Positions 16,701 to 28,719 of a DNA stretch of 64,000 nt are shown one piece after another. Below the pieces are notes generated by a model that ran no database searches, was not told where the DNA came from, and was given only the letters and a program-made list of their open reading frames with translations. Position 1 is the first letter of the stretch, and each line of letters opens with the position of its first letter. The position numbers and the translations under genes were made by a program. This DNA is from Cenococcum geophilum (Eukaryota). Location: positions 5,704,001-5,768,000 of the forward strand of contig CP158635.1 of the NCBI GenBank assembly GCA_050273025.1, given 5' to 3'.

Positions 16701-17196
16701 AAAAGGTCTTTCTACTAGCTAGTAAAAGGCAACTATATAATAAATAAAGCCTGTAAAGCGCTACCCCCTTATTTTTATAACTTTCTTAAAACAAACCTAA
16801 AAATAAAGTCTAAGTTTCTACGCCAAAAGATAGTCAATACTAATATTAAGAAATTTTTAAAAGGTAAACTAGAATTAACCTGCGAAGATATTTTATAACG
16901 CTTACTAAAAGAGTTTCGCGAATATATTAAATACTTCCTCCTTAAAAATATAGATAAGCTACCCCCCTACCAACTATAGAACTATAAAGTTAAGATTATA
17001 CCCAGAAAGTAGGCCCTATATTATAAAAATAGACTACTTTTACCCACTAAACTTAGTTATATAAAGAAGTGGATTAATAAGATACTAGGTAAGGGTTTTA
17101 TCCGCAAATTAACCTTACTAACCGCCGTATTACTCCTTCTTACTATAAAACCTAGCGGCGGTATATAAATCTACTATAACTACTAAGGTCTAAATA

Positions 17197-18125
17197 ATAG
17201 ATTTAATTTACCGTCCGACCTAGTCCCCCTAATGGGTCCACACAGACTAATTCCTATGGGAAAAAACCTCCTTATCTAAGAAAAACCCCTTTTTTTTTTA
17301 GGTGTATAAAAAACCTCTAGGGGAAACGTAAGAGGTAATACTTCCAGATAGCATCCGTACTACATTAACGAGAGAAAAAACACCGTTAGGTTACTGCTCT
17401 GAGACTCTATAAAAGTGTCCAAAATGCCTATCTTGCCCCGTCTGCCACTTAAACCATTTTTACTATATCTATATATTGCCTATATAAAGTCGTGTACCTA
17501 TCCCTAGCTCCTTTTCCAAGTCTCCTATAAATATCTCCTAATAATAACGCTTACGCTCCGCCTGGGCCTATATGCTAAGGTCTCTTATCTATTCCTTTAT
17601 TAAAAGGTTTCTATAATAGGGTGTATATAACTTAGTATTGCTTTTGCCCTAGGGCCTAAACCTAGGCCCTTATACCTATTTATAAGGTATAGAAGGACGC
17701 TCTAAATAGGGGGGACCAGTCCCTATAACTAGATACCTAGGTTACTAGGTAATGTTAAAATAGGGGGCCTCTGCTACACTTAGGGCGCGGATTGTTTACG
17801 TATGTGTATAGTTGCTATACGGTATATATAGTATTTATAGGAGGGAGGGGGTACGCTAGAGGGATAATTGCTTGTCAATTCGAATGACCAAATGCGTACG
17901 ATAGACGTGGTAGCTGTGTTTAAACTTTTTGCTAGGGCTTACCCCCTAGTGAAAAAATTTCACACCACTACCACCACGTCGCTGCGTAGGCGCTGCGTAG
18001 CCGTATATACGTCTTTGCGTTTACTTTAGTAGTCTATTAACACGATCTAAATAGAACATTAATAGTAGCTGCTAGGTTCCTGGGCTTTACCGCGTGGAGG
18101 TATAAAGGCCGATTTTATCGAGCCC
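17197..18125 (-). mobile_element. Non-autonomous non-LTR retroposon D, copy D1
   Basis: 12-bp TSD aaggtctaaata (17185-17196 / 18126-18137); colinear with D2 over its whole length. Confidence 0.92.
18013..18125 (-). ncRNA. HDV-like ribozyme fold at the 5' end of D1 (mutated)
   Basis: P1 GGGCTC/(G>A)AGCCC, P3 ACC/GGT, loop TCCACGC, P2 CTTT/AAAG, long P4. The putative catalytic C reads T. Confidence 0.72.
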
Positions 18126-19863
18126 AAGGTCTAAATATAGTTACTATTAAAAATTAGTATCTGTTGCTACTAGTTTACAAGATACTTAACGCACTCTATA
18201 GTACTAAGTACTTTACTAAGCTTAATATAATTACTATATTTAATTAAATCCGGATTACAGAAGGCTATAAATAGCTTATAGCATTTATTACTCAGTTTAG
18301 GCTCTATAAAATATTAGTTACACTATTTAGTCTCTATAACGCACCTGCTATATTTTAAAACTATATTAACTATATTCTACATAACACCCTTAATAACTAC
18401 TGCACTACGTATCTTAATAATATCCTTATCTTCTTAAAAATACGCGCTAAGCATATAAAATATATAAATAAAATTATCCAGAGACTTGGTAATACTGGAC
18501 TCTAAATTAATATTAATAAGTTTAAGTTTTATGCTACTAAAATAAAATACCTTAGCTTAATTATCTTAACTAACGGCATAACTATAAACCCTAAGAAGGT
18601 GCAGGCCTTACAGGAATAGAAGGACCCAACGTTAGTTAAGAAACTATAGCAATTTCTTAGCTTTATAAACTTCTACTAATAATTTATCTAAGGCTACTCT
18701 AAGGTAGTTAAGCCTATAACTAGGCTACTAAAGAAGAGCATTAGCTAGTTATAGGGCCTTAACTAAATATAGGCGTTTCAGACCATAAAAATAGCGTTTA
18801 CTATAGCACTGGTCCTAGTATATTATAACTATATAAAGAAGACTATAGTAGAGACAGACGCCTAAAACTAGGCTTTAGATAGAGTGCTCTATTAAGCTAA
18901 TAAAAGTAATAAGCTTAAGCTAGTTACATTATTCTCTACTAAGCACTTAGCCTTTAAATATAACTATAAAATATACAATAAGGAGCTCCTAGCAATTATT
19001 AAGGCACTAAAAAAATAGCGCCCTAAACTGTAAGGAACTAAGCAGCTATTTAAAATTATTACGGACTATAAAAACCTCTAGACCTTTATAATAATAAAAC
19101 AATTAAACCAGCGCTAAGTCCGCTAGGCTAAGTCCGCTAGGCTAAGTTCCTTTCCCAATTTAACTTTATTATTACCTATAGGCTAGCACTAAAGCTATAA
19201 TCCTAAACGCTCTTAGCCGCCTCCTAGGCATTATACCTACTAATACTAATAATAAATGTCTATAACACCAAGACCGCGTTATCTTACCACTAAAGAAAGT
19301 TAACCCTACTATCTTAAAAGAGCTACTAAGCAAATCCCAAAACTAGAGCATTAAAGACTTTATCGCAGTAATAGACCTAAAGCCTAAGAAAAAAACCCTT
19401 AAGGAGCTTATTAAGAATGCCTATATAAAAAATAAACTCGCTAGGAATATATTAGCTGCGCTATATAAATAGAAAGACTATAAAGTATGCCGTTAGCCTA
19501 AGCAGATTAGGAAGCTACTCCGCTATAACAAATCTAAATATTTAATTATTGACGGCCTAATCTAGTATAAGAATTAAGTATTTATCCCTAATTTACTTAA
19601 ACTCTAACTAGAAGTTATATACCGTATATATAGTTTAGGCCCTATAGGTCACCTAGGCCGCATTAAGACACTAAACCTCCTTAATTAAATATATTAGTAG
19701 CTAGGTATTTTATAGTTTACGGCTACCTTTATAAGAGACTGCGCTCTCTACTTCTATATAAAGACCCTATATTTAGTACCGCCTAGTTTCCTAAAACTAC
19801 TAGAACTACTAGTCCGCCCACAAACTAATATCTCTATTAATTATATTATTAACCTACCTAAGT

Positions 19864-24862: not shown

Positions 24863-25036
24863 CTATCTCCCTCCTCTTTATCTTTATTCTTAAAGATTTC
24901 TAATATCTCTAAGTTATCTACTAGAGGTATAATGTCCGTCTAATTAATTTAGTTAATATCTTTACTTATTATACCTAAAGCCTCTTCTTCTTCTTCTACT
25001 GCTTAACGTGCTTATACTATAACTACTATAGTATTA

Positions 25037-25976
25037 TAAGATTTAATTTACCGTCCGACCTGGTCCCCCTAATGGGTCCACATAGACTAATTCCTATGGG
25101 AAAAAACCTCCTTATTTATAGAGAAAACCCCCATTTTTTGGGTGAACAAAAAACCTCCAGGGGAGACGTGAGAGGTAATACTTCTAGATAGCATCCGTAC
25201 TATATTAACGGGAGGAAAAACACCGTCAGGTTACTGCTCCGAGACTTTCCCCTTACGCGGGAAAGTGTCTAAAATGCCTGTCTCGCCCCGTCTACCACTT
25301 AAACCAATTTACCACGCTTATATATTGCCTATATAAAGTCGTGTGCCTGTCCCTAGCTCCTTTTCCAAGTCTCCTGTAAATATCTCCTAATAATGACGCT
25401 TGCGCTCCGCCTGGGCCTGCATACTAAGGTCTCTTATCCATTCCTCTATTAAAAGGTTTCTACAACGGGTATATATAACTTGGTATTGCTTAAGCCCTAG
25501 GGCCCAAACCTAGGCCCTTGCACCTATTTGTGAGGTATAGGAGAACGCTCTAGTATTTAATAGGGGGGACTAGTCCCTATAACTAGATACCCAGGTTACC
25601 AGGTAATATTAAAATAGGGGGCCTCTGCTACGCTTAGGGCGCGGATTATTCGCGTATATGTGGGTGCTGCGCGGTGTATATAGTATTCGTAGGAGGGAGG
25701 GGGTACGCCGGAGGGATAATTGCTTGTCGATTCGAATGACCGAACGTATACGATAAACGTAGTAGCTGTGTTCAAACTTTTGCTGGGGCTCACCCCCTAG
25801 TGAAAAATTTTCACACTACCACCACCACGTCGCTGCGCAGGCGCTGCGCAGCCGTACACACGTCTCTGCGTTTGCTCTGGTAGTCTATTAATACGATCTA
25901 AATGGAACATCAATAGTAGCTGCTAGGTTCCTGGGCTCCACCGCGTGAAGGTACAGAGGCCGATTTCGTCGAGCCC
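25037..25976 (-). mobile_element. Non-autonomous non-LTR retroposon D, copy D2
   Basis: 14-bp TSD ctactatagtatta (25023-25036 / 25977-25990); same 5' terminus as D1. Confidence 0.93.
25864..25976 (-). ncRNA. HDV-like ribozyme fold at the 5' end of D2
   Basis: P1 GGGCTC/GAGCCC, P2 CTCTGT/GCAGAG, P3 ACC/GGT, L3 TTCACGC, ~16-bp imperfect P4, J4/2 AG-C-AAA, in nested double-pseudoknot order. Confidence 0.78.
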
Positions 25977-28719
25977 CTACTATAGTATTACTAGGTGAAA
26001 CTATACTATCTCCGTGTTCTCGTTATGCAAAAGAGGGGTTAGTTTATATTGCGTTAGCGAGTCCTTTATCTTAGTAACCCTCTTCCTATTTAAAGTGTAC
26101 TAAAGCGAATATTTAATTATTCTGTAATGTTCGCTCTATTTCTAACGCTAAGTATACGCGTTCTATAACTCTTAATAGTCTCTAAGTTCCCTAAGTAACT
26201 TATTATAGGGTCTTATGTTTAATTAATTACTGCAAAGCTTAATAATAAGCTGTTAGTTACTTTGGCAGAACTTTACCGTTCCTATAACGCGGAGTAAGAG
26301 GCTGCTAAAGCCTAGCAATATGCCCTTAACTCCTGTCTTACTACTTCTGCTTAGTTAATCCGTCTTAAAAAGGGTTGTAAGAAGGTCTATTTTAAGGAGT
26401 AGAAACTTATAAAATAAGGTCTATAGGAACTTAGTAATAAAAAAACGGATTCTCTTCTAATGGAGAGGGAAATAACTCCAAATAGCTTGGTAGCTGCTCC
26501 TCTTGGGTCCCCCTTAGGTAACTCATTCTTTAGTAATTCTTCTTTATTAATACTGCCTAACCTATTTTCCTTTAATACTCCTATACCTTTCTTATAGCGT
26601 TTTTTAGGTTACTTAGTAGTTCCTAGGTAGTCTTACTATAGCTTATCTACTTTACTTTATACTATATTTTATTATCGATATCCTTATAACTAATAATCTT
26701 TAAAACTTACTATTTATCTTCTTCTTATCCTCTATACGTGTCTGCTTTATAGACTAGTGGCTTAATATTTCTATATGCTAGTTCTAGCATTATAATATAC
26801 TATATAGGGTAGATCTTTATCTTAGCTAGTAAATTTAACTTAAATATAACTAATAAAAAATTTTATATAGTAGCTATACTTTATCCCCCTCCTTAAGATC
26901 TGGTCCCTTAGATCTCTTAGCATTATAGTACTTTTTTATTTATTCTTATACTAGTTTAGCTATTTCTCTAAGGTCTATATAAAGATTTATTAAAGTCTCT
27001 ATTCTCTACCTAGCTATACTACTTATTTTCTTTACTTAATATGGTAATAATAATATTCTTAGCTTGTATCCGTAATTCGCCTTAAATGGTAATATACCTA
27101 TTTATTTTTATGGTGTTATATTATATATAAACTATATAACTAGTAATAGTAATACCTAATTATTTTATATATAGTTAATATAGTGCCTTAGATACTGTTT
27201 TAGTGTCTAATTTAATCTTTCTGTTTGTCTATCCATCTGCGGATAATATACTATTAATATTACTGCGTAAACCCCTTGTTTAGCTAAGAATACCTCTTAA
27301 AATACTGCTATAAATCTTAGATCTTTATCCGATATAATTTTATCTAGTACTCTATGTCTTATAAACACTTCCTTAATATATATTCTAGCAATATCCTCTA
27401 CTAATATTTCTTCTGTGTGTGCTATAAAGTAACCCTACTTAGTTAGTTTGTCTACTATTACTAAGATTGTATTATAATCTTATCTTATAATAGGATATCT
27501 TAACTTTAGTAACTTAATAATAAAGTTCTATAATATGACTTCCCATAGTCTTTCTGGTATTTTAATAGGTTATAGCCCTCTATACGGCTTATATTTTGTT
27601 AGTTTATTCCTTTAGCAATCTAAACATTTTTTTATAACTTATCTTACTAGCCCCTAGATTCCTTAAATAATATACTCCTCTTAAAGTCTTAACACTAAGC
27701 CTATAGCTTTATTATATCCTTATATTATTCCCTTATAGAATTCTTTTATAAACTCCTCTGTAATAGACCTTGGCACGTATATTATTTCTTTATTTTTATA
27801 CTACTCTAAGTCTAGATCCTCTACCTATATGTCTTAGATCTTCTATATCTAATTACTCTCTAGTAATTTGTAGATCTAGCTTTTTTATATTGCTGCTATC
27901 TTTAGATAATTATACCTAATTAATCCATCTTTGTCCCTTTGCAATATAGCCCCTAATAATTTCTTATTGTTTTGTAATTCAGCCTTTCTACTTAGAGTGT
28001 TAGCTTATACGTTATCTATACCCTTAGTATACTAAATCTTAAAATGGTATTCTGTAAGTATTTCCGCCTATCTAACCTATCTTTAGTTTAATTCCGTTAT
28101 TATTAGGAATCCTATAAGGTTCTTATAGTCTATTTTAACTATAAATAGTTTCTCTGTGCCTTATAAGAATGCTCTCTATTTTTTTAATACTGTAACTATA
28201 CCTAAGAACTCCTTATTATAGATATTATAGTTTAGTTTTAATAGTGTTATCTTTTAACTATAGTATGCTACTAGATGCTATGCGTCCTGGTGCTTTTATA
28301 GCAAATATGCTCCTAGTGCAAAGTTTAATATATTTGTCTTAATTAACCGTTTCTAGCTTTGGTTAATAGATTTTGAGGATTAATTCCTAGGTAAATAACT
28401 CTTTCAGTTCCTTAAATAGCTTCTTCTGCTTACTACCTTATACCTATAGTTCCTCTTTCTTTATTAATTAAGTAAACGGCTTAATATTCTTTAACTACTA
28501 TGCAATAAACCTCCTATAGTAGTTGTAAAACCCTAGGAATAATCTTAACTATATAATGTTCTTTAGTTCTTACCAACTTACTATAGCTTCTACTTTCTTT
28601 AGGTCTATGCTAATACGTCCTAGTTTAATAATAAATCCAATAAAATTGGTCTTCTGTATAAAAAACTTGCATTTCTTAATTGCTACTAACATCTATTCTT
28701 TTTATAGTCTCTTTAAGAC

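What the first reader, a model, noticed from the sequence alone, without database searches (positions are those of the whole stretch)
25864..25976. Short retroposon whose 5' end is an HDV-like self-cleaving ribozyme
Seen: the minus strand reads GGGCTC-GACGAAATCGGC-CTCTGT-ACC-TTCACGC-GGT-G-GAGCCC-AGGAAC-[CTAGCAGCTACTATTGATG..TATTAATAGACTACCAG]-AGCAAAC-GCAGAG. That is P1, P2, P3, L3, P3', P1', P4, J4/2 with a C-N-A-A motif, then P2'. Copy D1 (18013-18125) has L3 TCCACGC, close to HDV UCCUCGC. Both independently inserted copies start at the first G of P1, flush with their TSDs. Known: HDV-like ribozymes process the 5' ends of R2, RTE and L1Tc retrotransposons and of R2-derived SIDEs. Inference: D is a fungal ribozyme-headed SINE/SIDE-like element with no tRNA head, which cuts itself out of read-through transcripts and so could mobilise from inside other transposons. 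Caveats: P1 is 6 bp, P1.1 reads AGG in both copies, and the putative catalytic C is T in D1.
Basis: partly seen in the sequence, partly recalled or inferred. Interest (0 to 1): 0.92.

Follow-up and report, generated by a model that had tools for sequence, protein, structure and literature searches.

The report
Fungal retroposon headed by HDV-like ribozyme
The window holds two mutated copies of an abundant, roughly 0.9-kb non-coding retroposon from a fungus-like genome, and its first 113 bases have the fold and key bases of a hepatitis-delta-type self-cutting RNA, a known way for such elements to trim their own 5' end that my literature searches did not find reported for fungi.

Summary
Both stretches are the first 113 nt of two copies of one element. 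The copies are 940 and 929 nt long, 86.6% identical, and have different target-site duplications of 14 and 12 bp.

I recovered 124 further copies from metagenome contigs. They show a high-copy non-LTR retroposon family with these features:
- a 5' end fixed at G1;
- duplications of 10-17 bp;
- short TAC/TAT/TA-type tails;
- no ORF and no tRNA-type head;
- heavy RIP-like C>T and G>A decay.

P2 becomes six Watson-Crick pairs, L3 reads TCCACGC, GG follows P1', and P1 is 7 bp in most subfamilies.

These copies fit a strict HDV-like descriptor. It was met by 0 of 128,000 window positions and by 0 of 20,000 shuffles. The only plausible Rfam matches are drz-agam-1 and HDV_ribozyme, and both fall below the gathering score.

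Not shown: cleavage, RNA 5' ends, and an autonomous partner. Both window copies are dead.

Verdict: a new, apparently fungal member of a known kind (R2-SIDE, NARTc, SIDER). Confidence about 0.8, interest about 0.6.

The parts
25037..25976 (-). Copy D2 of the retroposon, 940 nt, RIP-degraded
   Evidence: Extent taken from the repeat with D1 and from the flanking 14-bp target-site duplication.
25977..25990 (-). Upstream target-site duplication of D2 (TAATACTATAGTAG)
   Evidence: Read. An exact repeat lies at 25023-25036.
25023..25036 (-). Downstream target-site duplication of D2
25864..25976 (-). HDV-like ribozyme head of D2, inactivated. Minus-strand index i = 25977 - position. P1 25976-25971 pairs with 25938-25933. 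J1/2 is 25970-25959. P2 25958-25953 pairs with 25869-25864. P3 25952-25950 pairs with 25942-25940. L3 is 25949-25943. The P1.1 partner is 25932-25930. P4 is 25926-25877. J4/2 is 25876-25870.
   Evidence: Sequence. Family majority letters differ from D2 at 25953, 25948 and 25932, and each majority letter restores a pair or a core base. D2 itself fails the descriptor and gives no Rfam match.
25874..25874 (-). Candidate catalytic cytosine (i = 103, in G-C-A-A-A)
   Evidence: It aligns to the catalytic-C position of the Rfam HDV_ribozyme consensus in the sister copy L054. Across the copies it is C in 82, T in 38 and A in 1.
25039..25055 (-). Conserved 3' end motif GACGGTAAATTAAATCT of D2. In other copies it is followed by short TAC/TAT/TA repeats.
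17197..18125 (-). Copy D1 of the retroposon, 929 nt, RIP-degraded
18013..18125 (-). HDV-like ribozyme head of D1, inactivated: T at the catalytic position 18023, plus mismatches in P1 and P2
   Evidence: D1 fails the descriptor.
18126..18137 (-). Upstream target-site duplication of D1 (TATTTAGACCTT)
17185..17196 (-). Downstream target-site duplication of D1

Best explanation
D is a high-copy, non-coding, non-autonomous non-LTR retroposon of 0.8-1.0 kb in a fungus-like genome that undergoes RIP.

Shown:
- Copies have a fixed 5' end, variable target-site duplications, a conserved 3' module ending in short simple repeats, and no ORF.
- The first ~113 nt of intact masters can adopt the HDV-like nested double pseudoknot (P1, P2, P3, P1.1, P4), with a G-C-A-A-A junction holding the candidate catalytic C.

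Inferred:
- The element is transcribed by read-through or from an unknown polymerase II promoter.
- The ribozyme cuts just 5' of G1, so the RNA begins exactly at the element's first base whatever lies upstream.
- A still unidentified LINE recognises the 3' module and copies the RNA into A/T-rich targets by target-primed reverse transcription.
- Full-length cDNA therefore always starts at G1.

The two window copies are old insertions. RIP-type transitions have destroyed their ribozyme: the L3 C, the P1.1 G, P2 pairs and, in D1, the catalytic C.
For: Family and ends:
- 124 extra copies were found. 110 of 123 have the GGGCTY head at the right distance with unrelated flanks.
- 29 of 55 testable copies have duplications of 10-17 bp. 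Tails are (TAC)n, (TAT)n, (TA)n or (ATA)n after a conserved motif.
- Word depth inside D is about 3,000-58,000, against 108 in one flank.
- The window has no ORF of 120 aa or more. The least-mutated copy has ORFs of at most 69 aa.

Fold:
- Majority or de-RIP letters make P2 six Watson-Crick pairs, make L3 TCCACGC and put GG after P1'.
- C7-G38 makes P1 7 bp in four of five subfamilies.
- L054 and L066 pass the strict descriptor at base 1. That descriptor has 0 hits in 128,000 window positions and 0 in 20,000 shuffles. The loose descriptor hits 18 of 20,000 shuffles, none at base 1.
- The pseudoknot-free MFE fold recovers P1 and both P4 stems, z = -2.18.
- 87.3% of pair cells are standard, against 27-47% for slid partners.

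Rfam, 4227 families:
- L054 gives only drz-agam-1 (16.9 bits, E 0.34) and HDV_ribozyme (14.9 bits, E 5.1), in register with the catalytic C aligned.
- L076, from the window's own subfamily, gives drz-agam-1 at 21.5 bits, E 0.023.

Expression: stranded RNA reads lie almost only in the orientation that, for usual stranded libraries, means RNA of the element's sense strand, for example 1026 versus 17.6.
Against: - No Rfam match reaches its gathering score (37 and 50 bits). D2 gives none at E<=10. The copy from the largest subfamily scores only 11.3 bits.
- Only 10 of 109 copies pass the loose descriptor and 3 pass the strict one. D1 and D2 fail.
- In the two largest subfamilies position 45 is A in 66 of 67 copies, so the canonical two-pair P1.1 directly after P1' is absent or shifted by one base. 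These are nevertheless the most amplified lineages.
- Intact copies have G1-C44 rather than the G.U wobble I recall for HDV. One extra C lies between C-A-A-A and P2'.
- The excess of double changes over shuffles (99 versus 63 +/- 10.5) can come from relatedness and from uneven RIP load.
- Positions 19-61 are conserved by construction of my search pattern.
- No RNA 5' end at G1 was seen. The only listed pile-up of read ends is at 25931.
- No autonomous partner was found in the window or in 120 loci.
Confidence: 0.8

Rival explanations
1. The head only resembles an HDV-like ribozyme by chance. The constant 5' end at G1 is a transcription start set by an internal promoter, and the 113 nt serve as promoter or 5' UTR without catalysis.
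For: - All Rfam scores are below gathering.
- The largest subfamilies lack GG directly after P1'.
- A fixed 5' end is equally expected from a fixed start site.
- Loose HDV descriptors do hit background DNA, 24 times in 128,000 positions.
Against: - The strict descriptor, met at base 1 of natural copies, has 0 hits in 128,000 window positions and 0 in 20,000 shuffles.
- Of 4227 Rfam families, the matches at E<=10 are two HDV-like families plus one weak partial sRNA match lying mostly on flank.
- L3, the P1.1 bases and the G-C-N-A-A junction align base for base with the HDV consensus.
Confidence: 0.1
2. The head is a decayed or exapted descendant of an HDV-like ribozyme. It keeps the fold as a structural module, for example for RNA stability, reverse-transcriptase loading or promoter activity as in the trypanosome Pr77 element, but no longer cleaves in the amplifying lineages.
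For: - The most amplified subfamilies carry A45, and often A46 as well.
- Their P4 lower stem has one or two A.C mismatches.
- A dual promoter and ribozyme function of a 5' module is documented for L1Tc (PMC3185411, passages read).
Against: - Subfamilies with canonical cores exist, and they include the least-mutated copies, which sit beside intact genes.
- A single-pair P1.1 is compatible with activity in L1TcRz (PMC3185411).
- A45 and A46 may themselves be RIP products: one copy of a GGG-type subfamily, L039, also reads AAG.
Confidence: 0.08
3. D is not a retroposon but a DNA transposon (MITE), a solo LTR or a dispersed segmental repeat.
For: It is short, non-coding and of high copy number.
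Against: - No terminal inverted or direct repeats lie at its ends.
- Duplications vary from 10 to 17 bp between copies, and 3' tails are simple repeats of variable length.
- The 5' end is precise and some copies are 5'-truncated.
- RNA is present in the sense orientation.
Confidence: 0.02

Closest known systems
R2 SIDEs (short internally deleted elements of R2, Drosophila), PMC3414825 (abstract seen in the listing)
   Same: Short non-coding derivative of a non-LTR element. It keeps a 5' HDV-like ribozyme that defines the RNA 5' end and a 3' module for the reverse transcriptase.
   Different: R2 and its SIDEs insert at one site in 28S rDNA and are cut out of rRNA co-transcripts. D is dispersed in A/T-rich targets with 10-17 bp duplications, has several hundred copies or more, and its parent LINE is unknown.
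NARTc, RIME and SIDER with the Pr77/L1TcRz ribozyme (trypanosomatids), PMC3185411 and PMC4035085 (passages read)
   Same: Dispersed non-autonomous non-LTR retroposons whose first ~77-126 nt fold as an HDV-like ribozyme. Many genomic copies have decayed ribozymes.
   Different: Different kingdom. Pr77 is shorter and has a 1-bp P1.1. The parent LINEs (L1Tc, ingi) are known. No sequence similarity to Pr77 was tested here.
drz-agam-1 (Rfam RF01787, Anopheles gambiae HDV-like ribozyme)
   Same: It is the best Rfam match, at 21.5 bits for L076 and 16.9 bits for L054. Similarity runs through the A-rich J1/2 (AAAAUC), P3, L3 (CCUCCNCG) and the stretch after P1'.
   Different: Scores are below the gathering value of 37. 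P4 of D is much longer, about 50 nt with two stems. Common descent is not shown.
HDV genomic/antigenomic ribozyme (Rfam RF00094)
   Same: Same order of helices. L3 is UCCNCGC-like, GG(G) follows P1', AAC precedes P4, and the G-C-N-A-A junction aligns.
   Different: 14.9 bits against a gathering score of 50. G1-C rather than G.U at the cleavage-site pair (recalled). J1/2 is 10-13 nt. One extra nucleotide precedes P2'.
Classical fungal SINEs such as Mg-SINE of Magnaporthe (recalled; the one paper opened, PMC3978060, only names it)
   Same: Short, abundant, non-coding fungal retroposons that depend on a LINE. From memory, Mg-SINE also ends in TAC repeats, but I could not verify this.
   Different: Those have tRNA-like polymerase III heads. 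D has no tRNA, 7SL or 5S similarity and holds internal T5-T6 runs.

Membership tests
HDV-like self-cleaving ribozymes | Nested double pseudoknot in the order P1, J1/2, P2, P3, L3, P3', P1', P1.1, P4, J4/2, P2' | tested here: met
   My descriptor was written from recalled features. Natural copies L054 and L066 pass the strict form, and L076 passes the loose form, at base 1. Background hits of the strict form are 0 of 128,000 positions and 0 of 20,000 shuffles. D1 and D2 as they stand fail.
HDV-like self-cleaving ribozymes | Catalytic cytosine at the start of J4/2, followed by N-R-A (PMC10879173, passages: first position of J4/2, and C-to-U inactivates) | tested here: met
   G-C-A-A-A is present in D2 and in all five subfamily heads. 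It aligns to G-C-u-A-A of the HDV model. Across copies the position is C in 82, T in 38 and A in 1. D1 has T.
HDV-like self-cleaving ribozymes | P1.1: two pairs between L3 and the two bases right after P1' | tested here: inconclusive
   GG pairs with CC in subfamilies c1, c7 and c8. Position 45 is A in 66 of 67 copies of c9 and c2, so P1.1 there is shifted or single. Only 45.8% of cells are paired over all copies.
HDV-like self-cleaving ribozymes | Score at or above the curated gathering threshold of an Rfam HDV-like model | tested here: not met
   The best scores are 21.5 bits (drz-agam-1, gathering 37) and 14.9 bits (HDV_ribozyme, gathering 50). D2 gives none. These models are narrow. The family has only about five conserved nucleotides (PMC4870747, passage).
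HDV-like self-cleaving ribozymes | Mg2+-dependent self-scission 5' of G1, giving a 5'-hydroxyl | not testable with these tools
   The one read-laying run showed no pile-up of RNA ends at 25976. Those reads came from diverged copies, and standard libraries do not mark 5'-hydroxyl ends.
Non-autonomous non-LTR retroposon (SIDE/NARTc-like) | Variable-length target-site duplications, no terminal repeats, 3' simple-repeat or A-rich tail | tested here: met
   29 of 55 testable copies have duplications of 10-17 bp, and tails are TAC, TAT, TA or ATA repeats. No terminal inverted or direct repeats were found.
Non-autonomous non-LTR retroposon (SIDE/NARTc-like) | No coding capacity | tested here: met
   ORFs are at most 69 aa in the least-mutated copy. 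The window has none of 120 aa or more.
Non-autonomous non-LTR retroposon (SIDE/NARTc-like) | 5' and/or 3' ends shared with an autonomous LINE | tested here: inconclusive
   No longer element carries the head. No extra tail motif is in the window. None of the 15 ORFs of 180 aa or more in the loci has a reverse-transcriptase domain. No whole genome is held.
Canonical SINE (polymerase III, tRNA/7SL/5S head) | Head derived from tRNA, 7SL or 5S RNA | tested here: not met
   ARAGORN finds 0 genes. Rfam at gathering finds 0 matches in the window.
Canonical SINE (polymerase III, tRNA/7SL/5S head) | Body free of polymerase III terminators | tested here: not met
   T4 to T6 runs lie on the sense strand of L054, D1 and D2.

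The most novel reading that the evidence does not exclude
This would be the first lineage of HDV-like-ribozyme-processed retroposons in fungi, and it would still be active. Supporting signs are near-intact copies beside intact genes, sense-strand RNA, and modular evolution in which a constant ribozyme head and 3' module flank swapped middles. Its ribozyme would share descent with the mosquito drz-Agam-1 type, given the similar J1/2, P3/L3 and post-P1' sequence. That would point to an old LINE clade that carried this ribozyme across kingdoms, or to horizontal transfer.
Probability: 0.25. Interest if true: 0.75.

Novelty: new member of a known kind. Interest (0 to 1): 0.6.

Why it matters
HDV-like ribozymes at the 5' ends of non-LTR elements are documented in insects (R2, RTE, baggins), in trypanosomes (L1Tc, NARTc, SIDER) and in other metazoans. 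Five full-text searches found no paper describing one in a fungal retroposon. Two key papers were not held, so this is not proof of absence.

If cleavage is confirmed, three things follow:
- The host range of this processing strategy extends to fungi.
- It explains how a promoter-less, non-polymerase-III element can reach very high copy number in a RIP-active genome.
- It gives annotators a diagnostic 5' signature for a repeat family that standard SINE or LINE classifiers would leave unclassified.

It also offers a natural series of RIP-mutated ribozyme variants for structure-function work.

Tried and rejected
- Whole genome: none is held for this window, so no genome-wide census was possible.
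- Earlier notes of this scan: nothing by place, sequence or words.
- Rfam on the window at gathering and on D2 at E<=10: no match. Matches appeared only with less-mutated sister copies.
- Mitochondrial origin of the AT-rich window: rejected. There are no tRNAs, no ORF of 120 aa or more, and the differences between copies are RIP-type transitions.
- Six-frame Pfam scan of the window for a LINE partner: the tool refuses translations with stop codons. I then scanned only the 15 uninterrupted ORFs of 180 aa or more from the loci, which are ordinary eukaryotic genes with no reverse transcriptase.
- Heads followed by a long body: all copies with enough sequence are 0.8-1.05 kb or are interrupted.
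- Loose ends at 25966 in DNA contigs at first suggested copies diverging 10 nt inside the head. They are explained by subfamily differences at positions 7-10 (CATG, CG, GACG).
- Pile-up of RNA read ends at 25931: not interpretable, because the reads are under 95% alike and 74% run on into unlike sequence.
- Covariation: the excess over shuffles is confounded by RIP load and subfamily structure, so I give it little weight.
- Recollection that Mg-SINE and its LINE end in TAC repeats: not verified. The one paper opened does not say so.
- Ruminski 2011 and Webb & Luptak 2011 are not held, so my descriptor rests on recalled features plus passages from PMC10879173, PMC4870747 and PMC3185411.

Full report
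**1. What is in the window**

These stretches are the first 113 nt of two copies of one repeat. D2 spans 25976 down to 25037 (940 nt) and D1 spans 18125 down to 17197 (929 nt). They are 86.6% identical over 945 aligned positions, and the window holds no third copy.

Each copy is flanked by its own exact target-site duplication, 14 bp for D2 and 12 bp for D1. Each ends in ...GACGGTAAATTAAATCT plus two or three bases. Neither has terminal inverted or long terminal repeats.

The window as a whole is 29-40% G+C. It has no tRNA gene and no stop-free frame of 120 codons on any strand. It is degraded repeat-rich nuclear DNA, not an organelle.

**2. The family**

No whole genome is held, so I used public data.

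Laying contigs of two DNA runs on D2 gave word depths of about 3,000-58,000 inside the element, against 108 in the left flank. D is therefore a very abundant repeat in those organisms.

I then scanned metagenome contigs with a transition-tolerant pattern of positions 19-61. In the 120 loci I located 124 matches.
- All copies with enough sequence are short, about 0.82-1.05 kb. They share the first ~330 nt and the last ~300 nt but differ in the middle.
- Of 55 copies with both ends on the contig, 29 have duplications of 10-17 bp, 34 if 8-9 bp are counted. The duplications often start TAAT or ATAAT.
- The conserved 3' motif is followed by a variable run of TAC, TAT, TA or ATA units.
- The least-mutated copy, L054 (about 829 nt, 14-bp duplication), has no ORF above 69 aa.
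- Differences from subfamily consensus are 3,940 transitions against 201 transversions. Rates are highest at CpA (0.41) and TpG (0.37), which is the RIP signature. The direction of change is set by my consensus rule, but the dinucleotide context is not.
- Long ORFs on the same contigs are ordinary eukaryotic genes: a Dus3-like enzyme with a CCCH finger, an Ofd1-like oxygenase, a mitochondrial carrier and a DUF3176 protein. None is a reverse transcriptase.

These features define a non-autonomous non-LTR retroposon in a fungus-like genome.

**3. The 5' end**

Of 123 copies with at least 40 nt upstream, 110 show a GGGCTY-type hexamer (allowing transitions) at the expected distance from the core, and the sequence before it is unrelated A/T-rich flank.

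The distance varies only through J1/2 length: 10 nt in 26 copies, 11 in 1, 12 in 77 and 13 in 6.

The 13 exceptions are:
- point-mutated heads;
- small 5' truncations;
- one group of four loci in which the first five bases are replaced by a shared upstream repeat of at least 295 nt.

**4. Does the head fold as an HDV-like ribozyme?**

In D1 and D2 as they stand, no. Both fail even my loose descriptor, and D2 has no Rfam match at E<=10. These are RIP-damaged copies.

The majority letters in genomic contigs differ from D2 at exactly the awkward places:
- Position 24 is C, so P2 becomes six Watson-Crick pairs.
- Position 29 is C, so L3 reads TCCACGC.
- Position 45 is G, so GG directly follows P1'.

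I clustered copies by transversions and indels, which gave five subfamilies of 48, 19, 11, 8 and 4 copies.
- Their de-RIP heads are identical in P2, P3, L3, P1' and in AGCAAAC-GCAGAG.
- They differ in J1/2, in position 6 (C-G versus U.G), in position 45 and in P4.
- In four of the five, C7 can pair with G38, making P1 7 bp. The window's own subfamily has G7 and a 6-bp P1.
- P4 has two stems. The upper stem changes from GG/CC to GA/TC or GA/TT. The lower stem is perfectly complementary in one subfamily.

Descriptor test:
- Natural copies L054 and L066 pass a strict descriptor starting at their first base. It requires P1 of at least 6 bp, P2 of at least 6 bp, a Watson-Crick P3, GG-CC for P1.1, a P4 stem of at least 6 bp and C-N-R-A before P2'. 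L076 passes the loose form.
- In the window, over both strands and 128,000 start positions, the loose form hits 24 times, the form with a 4-bp P4 hits 11 times and the strict form hits 0 times.
- In 20,000 dinucleotide-preserving shuffles of the L054 head, the loose form hits 18, none at base 1. The 4-bp-P4 form hits 1 and the strict form hits 0.

Other structural evidence:
- A pseudoknot-free MFE fold of the L054 head recovers P1 and both P4 stems at -40.5 kcal/mol, against -32.5 +/- 3.7 for shuffles. That is z = -2.18, and 8 of 200 shuffles fold as well.
- On 107 aligned heads, 87.3% of pair cells are standard pairs, against 27-47% when partners are slid by 1-3 columns.
- Double changes exceed shuffles, 99 against 63 +/- 10.5, reached by 1 of 500 shuffles. 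I give this little weight, because the copies are dead, related and unevenly RIP-mutated.

**5. Rfam**

- The 181-nt stretch around the L054 head, scanned against all 4227 families at E<=10, gives two matches, both HDV-like: drz-agam-1 (16.9 bits, E 0.34) and HDV_ribozyme (14.9 bits, E 5.1).
- The HDV alignment starts at the element's first bases. It aligns CCUCCACGC-GG with the L3/P3 consensus, GGG-AAC with GGGCAAC, and AGCAAA with GGCuAA, so the candidate catalytic C falls on the model's catalytic C.
- L076, a less-mutated member of the window's own subfamily, gives drz-agam-1 at 21.5 bits, E 0.023, and one weak partial sRNA match lying mostly on flank.
- L104, from the largest subfamily, gives only a partial 11.3-bit drz-agam-1 match.
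- All scores are below gathering (37 and 50 bits), so membership by curated model is not met.
- The hypothesis was named beforehand, so the per-family chance of the best match is roughly its E-value divided by 4227.
- These models are narrow. The family conserves only about five nucleotides (PMC4870747, passage read).

**6. What speaks against, or is open**

- Position 45 is A in 66 of 67 copies of the two largest subfamilies, and position 46 is often A too. Their P1.1 is shifted by one base or reduced to one pair.
- A one-pair P1.1 is active in L1TcRz (PMC3185411, passages). One copy of a GGG-type subfamily also shows AAG, so part of this pattern may be RIP. It is still a real weakness.
- Intact copies pair G1 with C rather than U. 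From memory HDV has a wobble there.
- One extra C precedes P2'.
- Positions 19-61 are conserved up to transitions by construction of my pattern.
- RNA: a stranded run gave reads almost only in the orientation that normally means RNA of the element's sense strand, and only over the shared head and tail modules. These reads are under 95% alike and show no pile-up of ends at G1.
- No autonomous LINE with the same head or tail was found.

**7. Mechanism and placement**

The sense strand holds T4-T6 runs, and there is no tRNA, 7SL or 5S head. Polymerase III transcription of the whole element is therefore unlikely.

The most economical reading is that D is transcribed by polymerase II or by read-through, trimmed by its own ribozyme to begin at G1, and reverse-transcribed by a LINE that recognises its 3' module. 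This is how R2 SIDEs and the trypanosomatid NARTc, RIME and SIDER elements are understood (PMC3414825, abstract; PMC4035085 and PMC3185411, passages; review PMC6765202, passages).

D is thus a new member of a known kind. Five full-text searches found no report of such an element in fungi. Ruminski 2011 and Webb & Luptak 2011 could not be read, and supplementary files were not consulted.

**8. Verdict**

Catalysis, the source of transcription and the partner element remain to be shown. Both window copies are inactivated relics. Confidence in the ribozyme-headed retroposon reading is about 0.8, interest 0.6.

Noticed in passing
L036:1-295, L098, L109, L050 (upstream of the D head): In four loci the first five bases of D are replaced by a shared upstream repeat of at least 295 nt (74-90% alike). 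It is a composite repeat: either a 5'-truncated D inside another amplified element, or a longer relative of D. This upstream sequence is not in the window.
   Followed up: partly
window 25820-25860 minus strand, and L054 about +114 to +160 of the element: Directly after the ribozyme lies a G+C-rich inverted repeat, GCAGCGC...GCGCTGC in L054 and a GCTGCGCAGCGCCTGCGCAGC type in D2. It is conserved across subfamilies as a hairpin although its sequence varies. It may be an insulating or regulatory stem like the downstream attenuator described for L1Tc.
   Followed up: no
all D copies, about positions 330-640 of the element: The family is modular. Head and tail are shared by all subfamilies, while the middle differs between them. 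Coverage by other copies drops from about 115 to about 18-33.
   Followed up: partly
L056:5900-6533 and L066:6983-7500: The least RIP-mutated copies lie in G+C-normal, gene-bearing contigs, next to an Ofd1-like oxygenase gene in L056. After about 450-500 nt they diverge from all other copies. They may be truncated, or members of a further subfamily.
   Followed up: partly
window 25980-26020 versus 25000-25034: The two flanks of D2 differ about 25-fold in contig word depth in run X1 (about 2,550 versus 108). The sequence upstream of G1 is itself a repeat, while the downstream flank is low-copy or more diverged.
   Followed up: no
window, whole: The 64 kb hold no stop-free frame of 120 codons and have 29-40% G+C with long stretches of one-sided GC skew. 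This is the picture of an AT-rich, RIP-degraded repeat compartment.
   Followed up: no
target sites of D copies: Many target-site duplications begin TAAT, ATAAT or TTAT. This hints at a preferred nick site for the unknown endonuclease. The flanks are A/T-rich throughout, so it was not tested against background.
   Followed up: no
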